The translations under genes were made by a program, and so were the position numbers. Shown here piece by piece: positions 6,056 through 7,368 of a stretch of DNA of 13,324 nt; the stretch's first letter is position 1; each line of letters starts with the position of its first letter. The DNA is from a virus (Duplodnaviria; Heunggongvirae; Uroviricota; Caudoviricetes): IMG/VR virus record IMGVR_UViG_2695420744_000004, positions 1 through 13,324 of that record, one strand, 5' to 3'. The notes beneath the pieces are model-generated. The model did no database searches. It saw only the letters and a list, made by a program, of their open reading frames with translations, and was not told the origin of the DNA.

Positions 6056-6513
6056 GAGAGGTTAACTATGAGGCGCTTCGTGAGGCAGCACAAAACTATC
6101 AGTCGACGCTGGCGTGGTATCAGGCTATCCCGGACAGCCCAAATGCTGAACGGGATTGTGATGCGGCTCTTGCTGCGTTTAAGCGTCACATCCGTCATCG
6201 GGAAGCGGATATTATCGCTGATTTGCTGGATGGACTGGAAGAAGCAAAATCACAACTCAACGAGCAGCGTGAGTATTACGAAGGCGTTATCTCTGATGGG
6301 AGCAAGCGTATTGCTGCACTGGAAGCGCGGGAAGTTCAATTACCGACTCGCTACGACCTTCGATATGGACACCCGATAAATGCAGATGAGCGACATGTCA
6401 TGATACCTAAAGAAAATGGCAGTTGGCTTTACCTGATTGACCTAGAACACGCATTACGCGTCGCTGGCATTCGCATCAAAGGAGAGGAGCATGGAAATAA
6501 AACCAGAGGATGA
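6052..6513 (+). CDS. hypothetical nin-region protein ending in the shared C-terminal IRIKGE motif
   Basis: ATGA overlap with the upstream gene and AGGAGG Shine-Dalgarno. Its 3' end carries the 18-nt sequence CATTCGCATCAAAGGAGA that also ends the gene at 6943..7368. Confidence 0.6.
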   Translation: MREVNYEALREAAQNYQSTLAWYQAIPDSPNAERDCDAALAAFKRHIRHREADIIADLLDGLEEAKSQLNEQREYYEGVISDGSKRIAALEAREVQLPTRYDLRYGHPINADERHVMIPKENGSWLYLIDLEHALRVAGIRIKGEEHGNKTRG

Positions 6514-6847
6514 GTTAAGCAATATCGTTTTATTTCCTGTAAAAGAGGATGACCCGCGTAATCAGGTTAATTTTCTTTATGAGCCATCGGAAAGACCATA
6601 CTGCCATCACGCCTCTGTCCGGGTTGATGAAAAAGAGCGTCAGGTCCGCTGTAAAATCTGCGGCGCAGTTGTGGAGCCATTTGACTGGATGCTCTCTGTG
6701 GCGAAAAGAGAAACCAGACTGGCAGATGATGTAAGGCTATTGCGTCAGGAGGAACGGGAAAGACGGAAAAATATAGAAAAGCTAATTCAGATTGAGCGTA
6801 ACGCGAAAGCGCGGATACGCAGGGCGACAAAATCCAGAACTGAATAG
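6491..6847 (+). CDS. hypothetical Zn-ribbon-like protein (CHH…CKICG) with a basic coiled C-terminus
   Basis: GGAGAGGAG Shine-Dalgarno before ATG 6491; overlaps the upstream gene by 23 nt. Confidence 0.5.
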   Translation: MEIKPEDELSNIVLFPVKEDDPRNQVNFLYEPSERPYCHHASVRVDEKERQVRCKICGAVVEPFDWMLSVAKRETRLADDVRLLRQEERERRKNIEKLIQIERNAKARIRRATKSRTE

Positions 6848-6942
6848 TTAAATTTAGAACTGTTAAAAATTTAATCCTTAGCCGGAGGGATTTCTGCACC
6901 CTCAGAACATCAGGAGGCCGCCAGAAAGAGCGGTAATGAAAA

Positions 6943-7368
6943 ATGACTGAATTAACAAAAGAGCAATTAATCGAAGAAGCCAAATTAAAAATAGCGATTG
7001 CGAAATGCCATCCCAATTCAGGCGTGGCACGAGTAGAGGGTGAGTTATTCAAAATTGCACTGACATCGCTGGAAGCAGAACCGGTGGCATGGACTGACGA
7101 CGAGGAACTGCGAGATATTGAAAAATATGGGTTCGGTGAGATATTTCAGCGTCCGTCAGATAAATATGAGGCTTCGCGTTGTGTTACTCCATTGTATCGC
7201 ATGCCGCCAGTGCCTGTAGTACCTGAAGGACTGGTTAAAGCTGTGCACTTCTATGAACAAGTAAAACGTGAGAATCCGCCAGTTGAGACTGGAGCGTGGA
7301 AAGACGCTGTTGACTGGGTACTCAAAGAGGTTTGTCAGGTTGTAAACATTCGCATCAAAGGAGAATGA
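6943..7368 (+). CDS. hypothetical nin-region protein; N-terminus paralogous to the 7882 gene, C-terminus IRIKGE
   Basis: Shares the N-terminal MTELTKEQLI… and IALTSLEAEP motifs with the 7882 product. Its weak ribosome-binding site follows the only sizable intergenic gap of the block (6848-6942). Confidence 0.55.
   Translation: MTELTKEQLIEEAKLKIAIAKCHPNSGVARVEGELFKIALTSLEAEPVAWTDDEELRDIEKYGFGEIFQRPSDKYEASRCVTPLYRMPPVPVVPEGLVKAVHFYEQVKRENPPVETGAWKDAVDWVLKEVCQVVNIRIKGE

What the first reader, a model, noticed from the sequence alone, without database searches (positions are those of the whole stretch)
6468..7364. Identical 18-nt sequence CATTCGCATCAAAGGAGA at the 3' ends of two different genes
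The last codons (…IRIKGE) of the 6052..6513 and 6943..7368 genes, plus the ribosome-binding site for whatever follows, are encoded by the same 18-nt string (6468-6485 and 7347-7364). The upstream parts of the two genes are unrelated. This is the footprint expected of a conserved linker at which lambdoid modules are exchanged, doubling as a portable Shine-Dalgarno.
Basis: seen in the sequence. Interest (0 to 1): 0.45.

Follow-up and report, generated by a model that had tools for sequence, protein, structure and literature searches.

The report
Portable gene-junction linker of lambdoid phages
The repeated 18 bases are the core of a roughly 30-base junction (last codons of an Ea22-type gene, ribosome-binding site, stop codon and next start codon) that hundreds of E. 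coli phages share and at which unrelated genes on either side have been swapped repeatedly; it is a clear example of a known idea, not a new kind of element.

Summary
CATTCGCATCAAAGGAGA occurs exactly twice (6468-6485, 7347-7364), in the same codon phase (IRIKGE), with AGGAG 6 nt before the next ATG (6491, 7370). One detail is wrong: ORF 6052-6513 runs 8 codons past IRIKGE.

The 18-mer is the core of a ~28-31-nt junction, GC(T/A)GGCATTCGCATCAAAGGAGAGTGA(T/G)ATG. Phage lambda (end of ea22) and HK620 (hkaG/hkaF) carry it, as do 386 phage records and 57% of complete E. coli genomes.

- Among 119 copies, 14 unrelated upstream classes pair with 20 unrelated downstream classes in 48 combinations. 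That gives 15 independent cycles and 35 four-combination quartets.
- Similarity collapses at the edges of the junction.
- Three contigs (L412, L371, L378) lack exactly the 879 bp between the window's two copies.

Unbiased anchors show non-synonymous changes in the tail while the SD-stop-start segment is near-invariant. So the constraint is on the ribosome-binding site, not the peptide. This also explains the "+GE" ending of Ea22 proteins, whose significance a 2020 paper called unknown: K-G-E is AAA-GGA-GA(G/A), the Shine-Dalgarno read in frame.

The closest concept is the lambdoid "boundary sequences" of Clark et al. 2001. Recombination within the linker is inferred, not shown. Interest is modest.

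The parts
6468..6485 (+). 18-mer copy 1 (codons ..C ATT CGC ATC AAA GGA GA = IRIKGE; AGGAG at 6480-6484)
7347..7364 (+). 18-mer copy 2 (same phase; AGGAG at 7359-7363)
6463..6493 (+). Full linker copy 1, GCTGGCATTCGCATCAAAGGAGAGGAGCATG. The left arm matches the consensus. The right arm is the 'GGAGCATG' variant without the stop codon, so the Ea22-like ORF reads on for 8 codons and overlaps the next gene.
7342..7372 (+). Full linker copy 2, GTAAACATTCGCATCAAAGGAGAATGAGATG. The left arm diverges (VN instead of AG). The right arm is the consensus type: stop TGA, one base, ATG.
6052..6513 (+). Ead/Ea22-like gene (Pfam PF13935, E 3.5e-11; annotated by PGAP as ead/Ea22-like in a 99% identical prophage)
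6304..6467 (+). 'Type A' Ea22 C-terminal cassette. Its left edge lies in the coiled-coil motif SKRIAALEAREV, where similarity to L412 begins.
6038..6090 (+). 5' junction of the Ea22-like gene (CAGGAGG, then the start codon, then REVNYEALRE). It is a diverged form of the conserved Ea22 5' junction CAAAGGAGGCAACCAGTGAGC(A/G)A(G/A)ATT.
6491..6847 (+). Downstream module 'class 0' (MEIKPEDE..., phrog_1621, weak zinc-ribbon hit). It is the commonest partner of the linker (43 of the sites with a classified downstream flank).
6943..7368 (+). Chimeric gene. The N-terminal module (MTELTKEQL...) is related to the N-terminus of ORF 7882. The last ~54 codons are a 'type B' Ea22 C-terminal cassette.
7206..7346 (+). 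'Type B' Ea22 C-terminal cassette. It is 86% identical to the 3' end of a full-length 260-aa Ea22 gene in L061, and the similarity stops at the ATG of the next gene.
7370..7885 (+). Downstream module 'class 1' ([10 protein letters not shown]..., phrog_9263/631). Elsewhere it is preceded by GIRIKGE, NIRIKGE, NIGIKGE or LRTKGE tails.
6486..7364 (+). 879-bp segment (one repeat unit plus the two genes between the copies). It is precisely absent from contigs L412, L371 and L378.
7882..7896 (+). ATGACCACTTTTACC, one mismatch from ATGACCACTATTACC. This is another recurrent junction (start of the MTT(I/F)TKE... genes), also found at HK620 hkaF/hkaE.

Best explanation
The 18-mer is the core of a ~28-31-nt portable gene junction of enterobacterial temperate phages, consensus GC(T/A)GGCATTCGCATCAAAGGAGAGTGA(T/G)ATG. 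Read as protein, it gives the last eight residues (AGIRIKGE) of whatever ORF lies upstream, usually an Ead/Ea22-family protein. Read as mRNA, it supplies the Shine-Dalgarno (AGGAG), the stop codon and, one base later, the start codon of whatever gene lies downstream. Copies sit next to unrelated sequences on both sides and are the only homology between such arrangements. Recombination between copies, in different phages or prophages or within one genome, therefore swaps, inserts or deletes whole modules while keeping both reading frames and downstream translation intact. In this window the two direct copies bracket an 879-bp, two-gene cassette. SHOWN: the anatomy, the frame, the spacing to the start codon, the diversity and reassortment of the flanks, the sharp breakpoints, and the cassette presence/absence polymorphism. 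INFERRED: that the exchanges are homologous recombination events inside the linker, carried out by RecA or by phage annealing recombinases (Red, RecET, Erf or Sak4 type); that the AGGAG actually drives translation of the downstream gene; and that the peptide tail is a passenger.
For: All 127 copies are in the same frame at a protein C-terminal end, and the next start codon is at +23 in 108 of 111. The flanks form 14 upstream and 20 downstream classes in 48 combinations. The module graph has 15 independent cycles and 35 four-combination quartets, and one-sided flanks are up to 100% identical across different partners. Information content is about 2 bits from -4 to +25 and at background beyond about -12 and +28. 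Identity collapses at +17..+28 in 92 of 95 class pairs and at -12..0 in 75 of 77; the shared core has a median of 28 nt. In an unbiased scan of 15-mers this junction is one of the two sequences with the most diverse flanks on both sides. L412, L371 and L378 join window 6304-6486 directly to 7347-7896, with a 19-nt overlap that is the repeat. The junction persists in 28 'empty' sites where ea22 is reduced to its first ~8 and last ~12 codons. It occurs in two operon contexts: 63 loci of the post-replication type and 17 of the exo-xis type. It is present in lambda, HK620, 386 phage records and 3068 of 5426 complete E. coli genomes, with a median of 2 and up to 11 copies per genome. Wobble positions outside the SD are identical across unrelated flanks: 120 exact copies against a handful of variants. 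The published minimal homology for both RecA- and Red-dependent recombination is about 30 bp, and exchange at short conserved flanking sequences is an accepted mechanism (PMC2327257; PMC3029335). One RefSeq record annotates a ribosome-binding site under the match.
Against: No experiment or direct trace shows a crossover inside the linker. The left edge of the core is ragged between upstream classes (-12 to 0). The right half alone, AAAGGAGAGTGA(T/G)ATG, is shared with a different tail (LRTKGE) of an unrelated 62-aa protein. Part of the pattern could therefore reflect selection for a working RBS and stop-start unit after non-homologous joins. The 120 loci were retrieved through the 18-mer itself, which inflates its count in the k-mer comparison. 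A core of 18-31 nt is at or below the efficient homology length, so individual events would be rare. The recombination genes of this prophage lie outside the window.
Confidence: 0.75

Rival explanations
1. Selection filter only. The junction is simply a good RBS plus stop-start unit. Modules are joined by illegitimate or microhomology-mediated recombination anywhere, and only joins that preserve this unit survive. The linker is not itself the recombination substrate.
For: The SD-stop-start segment is the most invariant part and is shared with a different tail, LRTKGE. The left edges are ragged. In lambda the linker survives although its start codon is ATC and no gene follows for 190 nt, so it can persist passively.
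Against: Any SD would serve, yet the non-SD bases ATTCGCATC, including their wobble positions, are identical across 14 unrelated upstream classes. The 15 cycles and 35 four-combination quartets require repeated re-pairing of pre-existing modules whose only shared sequence is the linker. The cassette absence in L412 has a 19-nt overlap exactly at the repeat. Illegitimate joins would not land at the same ~30 nt again and again.
Confidence: 0.15
2. Functional peptide. (A)GIRIKGE is a selected C-terminal motif, for example a binding, oligomerisation or degradation signal, and the nucleotide identity is a by-product.
For: All Ea22 proteins end in a basic residue followed by G-E (PMC7093339).
Against: Anchoring on the flanking modules rather than on the linker shows frequent non-synonymous variants: G to D in about 28 of 119 type-A sites, R to G, I to T, A to S, and LRTKGE. 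These occur alongside synonymous ones, while K-G-E (the SD) is near-invariant. The tail is found on unrelated proteins: a Mom-like protein, DUF977 read-throughs and a 27-codon ea22 remnant. The window's own DUF977 protein lacks it. The lambda Ea22 CTD dimer interface lies in residues 112-162, and no role is assigned to the tail (PMC10834534).
Confidence: 0.05
3. Ordinary paralogy or chance. The two genes are diverged duplicates and the 18-mer is their best-conserved remnant, or a chance repeat.
For: The full-length proteins give a 29-residue local alignment, E 7e-5. Both hit phrog_250.
Against: Without the tail there is no similarity, E 5.3. None of 200 shuffles reproduces the repeat. The same string is attached to at least 14 unrelated upstream sequences elsewhere.
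Confidence: 0.03

Closest known systems
'Boundary sequences' of lambdoid phages (Clark, Inwood, Cloutier & Dhillon 2001, J Mol Biol 311:657, phage HK620) and the linker homologies of the Susskind-Botstein modular theory (1978)
   Same: A short conserved sequence at a gene or module junction, flanked by non-homologous alternatives in different phages, and proposed to be the site of homologous recombination that reassorts modules (as cited in PMC3029335, and PMC2327257). HK620 itself carries this exact junction between hkaG (Ead/Ea22-like) and hkaF.
   Different: I could not read the 2001 paper, so I cannot say whether this particular sequence is one of those it lists. Possibly added here: the ~31-nt extent, the quantified reassortment, the dual reading as peptide tail and SD-stop-start, its presence in two operons and on P1-like phage-plasmids, and the 'empty' sites.
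The '+GE' C-terminal tripeptide and mosaic organisation of Ea22 proteins (Dydecka et al. 2020, PMC7093339; Sci Rep 2024, PMC10834534)
   Same: The same proteins and the same ending. These papers describe a variable N-terminus, a common coiled coil and unrelated C-terminal domains, and note that all Ea22 proteins end in K/R-G-E.
   Different: The 2020 paper states that the significance of +GE is unknown. None of the Ea22 papers I searched mentions a Shine-Dalgarno, and no held paper contains IRIKGE. Here K-G-E is read as AAA-GGA-GA(G/A), the SD of the next gene inside a conserved junction, and the tail is shown to occur outside the Ea22 family.
Integron gene cassettes with attC sites
   Same: Arrays of small accessory genes separated by a recurring short sequence, with cassettes gained, lost and reshuffled.
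   Different: The linker has no dyad symmetry or folded structure (z about 0.2) and no Rfam match. Nothing points to an associated site-specific recombinase. The linker lies inside coding sequence and contains the RBS. Any exchange would be by general or phage homologous recombination.
Translationally coupled stop-start junctions (TGA-N-ATG, ATGA) in phage operons
   Same: AGGAG 6 nt before the ATG, with the stop of the upstream ORF one base before, or overlapping, the next start.
   Different: Ordinary coupled junctions are specific to their gene pair. This one is shared, base for base, by dozens of unrelated gene pairs.

Membership tests
Lambdoid boundary / linker sequence | Short (tens of nt) conserved sequence located at a gene or module junction | tested here: met
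   The core runs from about -5 to +25 (about 31 nt). All 127 copies are at an ORF 3' end, with the next start at +23 in 108 of 111.
Lambdoid boundary / linker sequence | Flanked by non-homologous alternatives on both sides in different phages | tested here: met
   14 upstream and 20 downstream classes. Identity collapses at the core edges.
Lambdoid boundary / linker sequence | Modules on the two sides are reassorted (all four combinations of two left and two right alternatives exist) | tested here: met
   35 such quartets and 15 independent cycles in the module graph. An 879-bp cassette is present or absent precisely between two copies.
Lambdoid boundary / linker sequence | Shared by several distinct lambdoid phages | tested here: met
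   Lambda; HK620; Stx phages, P22-like Salmonella phages, phiV10, and P7 and D6.
Lambdoid boundary / linker sequence | Homologous recombination actually takes place within it | not testable with these tools
   Only comparative patterns are available. This needs genetic crosses.
Lambdoid boundary / linker sequence | Listed among the boundary sequences of Clark et al. 2001 | not testable with these tools
   The paper is not held.
Ead/Ea22-like protein family (Pfam PF13935) | Match to the Ead_Ea22 profile above the gathering score: ORF 6052-6513 | tested here: met
   44.2 bits against a cut-off of 27, E 3.5e-11. PGAP names the identical protein ead/Ea22-like.
Ead/Ea22-like protein family (Pfam PF13935) | Match to the Ead_Ea22 profile: ORF 6943-7368 | tested here: not met
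   No Pfam hit. Only its last ~54 codons are shared with a full-length Ea22 gene (L061) and with the C-terminal end of phrog_250. It carries an Ea22 C-terminal cassette but is not an Ea22 protein.
Shine-Dalgarno / coupled stop-start junction | AGGAG-type motif 5-9 nt upstream of a start codon that opens a real ORF | tested here: met
   AGGAG at 6480-6484 and 7359-7363, 6 nt before ATG 6491 and 7370. Both ORFs match phage protein families. The SD is unpaired in the predicted folds.
Shine-Dalgarno / coupled stop-start junction | Downstream translation depends on it | not testable with these tools
   This needs reporter fusions or ribosome profiling.
Site-specific cassette site (attC-like) | Imperfect inverted repeat able to fold | tested here: not met
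   No significant structure (z 0.17-0.20) and no Rfam family at the site.
Functional C-terminal peptide motif | Amino-acid conservation exceeding nucleotide conservation (mostly synonymous change) | tested here: not met
   Unbiased anchors give frequent non-synonymous variants (G to D, R to G, I to T, A to S, LRTKGE) beside a few synonymous ones.

The most novel reading that the evidence does not exclude
The junction may be one of a small, actively maintained set of portable linkers. The others seen here are the Ea22 5' SD-GTG-SEINYQ junction, the internal KRIAELE coiled-coil junction, the MTTITKE start and the PVTPDGWISCSERMP start of DUF551 domains. Together they would make the accessory regions of enterobacterial temperate phages a cassette-exchange system that resembles an integron but is driven by homologous recombination. 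In that reading the non-SD left arm is conserved because lineages that keep compatible linkers gain access to a shared pool of accessory genes (second-order selection), and not merely by descent.
Probability: 0.15. Interest if true: 0.6.

Novelty: new member of a known kind. Interest (0 to 1): 0.3.

Why it matters
The finding gives a concrete, quantifiable case for the homologous-linker route to phage mosaicism, which has long been debated against illegitimate recombination followed by selection. One ~30-nt sequence accounts for repeated in-frame, expression-preserving exchange of accessory genes among lambda, Stx, P22-like and P1-like phages, and it is present in more than half of complete E. 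coli genomes. It offers a simple explanation for the '+GE' ending of Ea22 proteins that was recorded as unexplained. It warns annotators and structural biologists that the last seven or eight residues of these proteins are probably junction-encoded passengers. It also suggests a practical handle, a natural ~30-nt homology arm, for recombineering cassettes into the exo-xis and post-replication regions of many prophages, including Stx phages. The concept itself is old, so the advance is incremental.

Tried and rejected
1. Paralogy of the two genes: rejected. The similarity vanishes when the tail is removed.
2. Structured RNA or regulatory element at the repeat: no Rfam family, fold z-scores about 0.2, and promoter- and terminator-like sites not above chance.
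3. Structure prediction of ORF 6943 to see whether the tail is ordered: the single-sequence model was too poor to use (mean pLDDT 56; the tail is below 50, but that is not interpretable).
4. PDB sequence search with ORF 6052: nothing significant.
5. Wobble-degenerate scan as a test of peptide against nucleotide conservation. It proved biased because only wobble changes were allowed, and it was diluted by an unrelated internal motif, GMRIKGDD, of a large protein. I replaced it with scans anchored on the flanking modules.
6. Species-representative genome scan for taxonomic range. Of 120 rows, 33 are lambda-identical sequence on tiny or low-coverage contigs. The other 79 lack the linker context: about half of these are one locus of Microcoleus and other cyanobacteria, and the rest are isolated matches (about 17 chance hits expected). 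Only Escherichia, Shigella and Shimwellia, plus two probably mis-binned MAG contigs, look genuine.
7. Reading Clark et al. 2001 to see whether this junction is already listed: the paper is not held. Full-text searches for IRIKGE, for Ea22 with Shine-Dalgarno, and for Ead with boundary found nothing relevant.
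Full report
OBSERVATION. The string CATTCGCATCAAAGGAGA occurs exactly twice in the window, at 6468-6485 and 7347-7364 on the + strand. No third copy appears with up to two mismatches, and none of 200 dinucleotide-preserving shuffles gives two matches. Both copies are in the same codon phase, xxC ATT CGC ATC AAA GGA GA(G/A), which encodes IRIKGE. In ORF 6943-7368, IRIKGE is the true C-terminus (TGA at 7366-7368), and the next ORF starts one base later at 7370. In both cases AGGAG lies 6 nt before the next ATG. With the tail removed, the two proteins show no similarity (E = 5.3). The E = 7e-5 of the full-length comparison came from the tail.

WHAT THE GENES ARE. ORF 6052-6513 is an Ead/Ea22-family protein (Pfam PF13935, 44 bits). 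PGAP gives it the same name in a 99% identical E. coli prophage. ORF 6943-7368 has no Pfam hit. Its last ~54 codons (7206-7346) are 86% identical to the 3' end of a full-length 260-aa Ea22 gene in contig L061, and that similarity ends exactly at the ATG of the next gene. Its N-terminus is related to that of ORF 7882-8226. The window is the early-right region of a Qin-like lambdoid prophage. It carries DicF, relBE, YdaT, replication genes with iterons, DUF1627, DUF977, DUF4406, these genes, two hok/sok loci, DUF968, RusA and a 229-codon ORF (12268-12957) at the antiterminator-Q position.

THE STRING ELSEWHERE. In all 127 copies (120 contigs, one E. coli prophage, the window) the string is in the same frame at the C-terminal end of an ORF. 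Of these, 85 end IRIKGE* and about 40 end IRIKGEEHGNKTRG/R*. The next start codon is at +23 in 108 of 111 cases. Phage lambda's own ea22 ends GCTGGCATTCGCATCAAAGGAGAGTGAGATC. There the start codon has decayed to ATC and no gene follows for 190 nt. HK620 carries GCTGGCATTCGCATCAAAGGAGAGTGAGATG at the junction of hkaG (Ead/Ea22-like) and hkaF. A 31-nt consensus finds 386 phage records: lambda, Stx phages, P22-like Salmonella phages next to eaA, phiV10, and the P1-like P7 and D6. One record annotates a ribosome-binding site under the match. The same consensus finds 3068 of 5426 complete E. coli genomes, with a median of 2 and up to 11 places per genome, 415 of them on plasmids. Among species-representative genomes, genuine copies are confined to Escherichia, Shigella and Shimwellia. 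The other hits are lambda-identical sequence on small or low-coverage contigs, or matches without the linker context.

BOTH SIDES ARE VARIABLE. I clustered 120 nt on each side, leaving out the bases next to the string. This gives 14 upstream and 20 downstream classes, in 48 combinations among 119 sites.
- Downstream classes include DUF551 proteins, a dATP/dGTP pyrophosphohydrolase-DUF551 fusion, a ClpX-type zinc-finger protein and several families of unknown function.
- The window's copies are up0/down0 and up7/down1.

Across one representative per combination, the conserved core runs from about -5 to +25: GC(T/A)GGCATTCGCATCAAAGGAGAGTGA(T/G)ATG. Information falls to background outside it. Where only the downstream class differs, identity collapses at +17 to +28 in 92 of 95 class pairs. 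Where only the upstream class differs, it collapses at -12 to 0 in 75 of 77. Where both differ, the shared core has a median of 28 nt, IQR 24-31.

REASSORTMENT. The bipartite graph of upstream and downstream classes has 48 edges, 34 nodes and one component. That gives 15 independent cycles, and 35 quartets show all four combinations. One-sided flanks are up to 100% identical across different partners. These arrangements share no other homology, so the exchanges must have fallen in or at the linker.

The clearest case involves the window's own two copies. Contig L412 aligns to window 6304-6486 at 99.5% and to 7347-7896 at 95.3%, and the two alignments overlap in L412 by 19 nt, which is the repeat. 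L371 and L378 show the same 73-nt spacing between the two flanking anchors. These contigs therefore lack exactly the 879 bp between the two copies. Four other contigs have the window's arrangement.

The junction also survives when its cargo is lost. In 28 sites ea22 is reduced to its SD, the codons GTG-SEISYQ, and the last ~12 codons. It also occurs in two operons: 63 loci have post-replication (pR-side) markers as here, 17 have lambda-type exo-xis (pL) markers, and 40 are unassigned.

CONTROL. I scanned all 15-mers present in at least 10 of the 120 loci and counted the classes of flanking sequence on each side. This junction is one of the two top-ranking sequences. The other encodes PVTPDGWISCSERMP, the start of DUF551 domains. 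The Ea22 5' junction (SD plus GTG start) and the MTTITKE start follow. The caveat is that the loci were retrieved through the 18-mer, so its count is inflated, although the diversity of its flanks is not.

PEPTIDE OR RNA/DNA? A wobble-degenerate scan showed 120 exact copies against a few variants, but it could only detect synonymous change. I therefore anchored on the flanking modules instead.
- Downstream anchor: of 120 copies of the gene that starts at window 7370, 64 have the exact 18-mer. Another 45 follow a different tail, (H/Y)LRTKGE*, of an unrelated 62-aa protein, and share only AAAGGAGAGTGA(T/G)ATG. Others carry NIGIKGE or IRTKGE.
- Upstream anchor: of 119 type-A domains, about 28 have G to D and 18 have A to S, beside 9 synonymous changes.
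- The SD-stop-start segment is invariant in all but one or two copies per anchor set.

The constraint therefore sits on the ribosome-binding and stop-start unit, not on the peptide. The published lambda Ea22 CTD structure places the dimer interface in residues 112-162 and assigns no role to the tail. No RNA structure, Rfam family, promoter or terminator is associated with the site.

MECHANISM. Shown: the anatomy, frame, spacing, flank diversity, reassortment, sharp breakpoints and the cassette polymorphism. Inferred: that copies of the linker recombine by homologous recombination. This is plausible because the minimal homology for both RecA- and Red-dependent recombination is about 30 bp, and exchange at short conserved flanking sequences is an accepted route to lambdoid mosaicism (PMC2327257; PMC3029335). 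It is also plausible because a typical E. coli genome holds two or more copies. Because the linker contains the upstream ORF's last codons, its stop, the SD and the next start, any crossover inside it yields two intact, expressed genes. The ragged left edge and the half-linker shared with LRTKGE suggest how new modules may enter the system: by rarer non-homologous or microhomology joins at the edges, after which they would be shuffled by homology.

COMPARISON WITH WHAT IS KNOWN. The closest concept is the 'boundary sequences' that Clark et al. (2001) described from HK620, together with the linker homologies of the Susskind-Botstein modular theory. HK620 contains this very junction, so it may already be listed there. 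The paper is not held, so I could not check. Ea22 mosaicism is published (PMC10834534; PMC8614690). Dydecka et al. (2020) noted that all Ea22 proteins end in a basic residue plus G-E and wrote that the significance is unknown (PMC7093339). None of the Ea22 papers I searched mentions a Shine-Dalgarno, and no held paper contains IRIKGE. The simple reading offered here is that K-G-E is AAA-GGA-GA(G/A), the SD of the next gene read in frame.

VERDICT. The feature is a well-documented new instance, or possibly a rediscovery, of a known kind of element, with a modest new explanatory point (the +GE motif). Interest 0.3.

Noticed in passing
window 8329-9815 and 10064-11544: Direct duplication of about 1.49 kb at 94% identity, offset 1735 nt. 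Each copy carries a hok/sok locus (Rfam sok at 8348-8523 and 10083-10258). The ORF list suggests the first copy ends in a shorter DUF968-like ORF (9121-9834) and the second in the full-length one (10850-11905), but these two ORFs were not compared. The closest E. coli prophage (99% identical) covers only 87% of the window and its annotation lists a single hokD, so the duplication may be absent there (not checked).
   Followed up: partly
window 3239-3288 and 3531-3570: Two clusters of 10-nt-spaced ATGTCACG(A/G)C repeats inside the DnaT-like/O-like replication gene (3107-4153). They are probably the origin iterons.
   Followed up: no
window 11-62 (- strand): DicF antisense RNA (Rfam RF00039, 76.7 bits). 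It marks the prophage as Qin/dicB-type.
   Followed up: no
L184, L185, L193, L194, L196, L207, L213, L217, L221, L225, L226 and others (33 loci from genome contigs): The flanks of the 18-mer in these contigs are identical to phage lambda's ea22 end (GACGCTGG...GTGAGATCGGTT). The contigs are tiny or low-coverage and belong to representative genomes of unrelated taxa (Streptococcus, Streptomyces, Bradyrhizobium, Bacillus, Piscirickettsia...). One is a 48,542-bp contig at 0.96x coverage in Shewanella canadensis. This is most likely lambda DNA contamination of the assemblies.
   Followed up: partly
L001 2830-2935 and 27 other loci (upstream classes 1 and 11): 'Empty' ea22: the SD, the codons GTG-SEISYQ and the last ~12 codons are fused into a 27-codon mini-ORF. 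In some contigs it is read through in frame from DUF977. Only the two conserved ends of the gene remain.
   Followed up: yes
L178 (lambda NC_001416) 29817-29847, - strand: In lambda itself the start codon of the linker is ATC, and the ~190 nt before ea8.5 look like the decayed remains of a downstream gene. Relatives (e.g. L031) still have ATG at this position but with stops soon after.
   Followed up: partly
120 viral loci; e.g. HK620 L299 2065-2598 (hkaE): Another sequence with very diverse flanks on both sides, CCGGTAACTCCGGATGGTTGGATAAGCTGTAGTGAGCGAATGC, encodes PVTPDGWISCSERMP. This is the start of DUF551 domains, so it is an intragenic domain junction. The Ea22 5' junction, CAAAGGAGGCAACCAGTGAGC..., behaves similarly.
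   Followed up: partly
L301-L412 (sites anchored on the window-7370 gene): A 62-aa basic, Cys-containing protein (MKNRKAKILLVRRN...AAQNRWKNHLRTKGE) ends in a related half-linker. Elsewhere it lies downstream of a GIRIKGE linker (L097). Small genes in these regions appear to be chained by similar SD-stop-start junctions.
   Followed up: partly
window 7370-7885: This ORF is intact here but is annotated as a frameshifted pseudogene in the 99% identical prophage of E. coli 23CRST047 (L121 7870-8048).
   Followed up: no
L122, L123, L127 and about 40 other environmental viral contigs: The degenerate pattern also matches a conserved internal motif, GMRIKGDD(T/S)P..PGE(F/W)RDVDV, of a large (over 400-residue) protein of environmental phages. 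It is unrelated to the linker.
   Followed up: no
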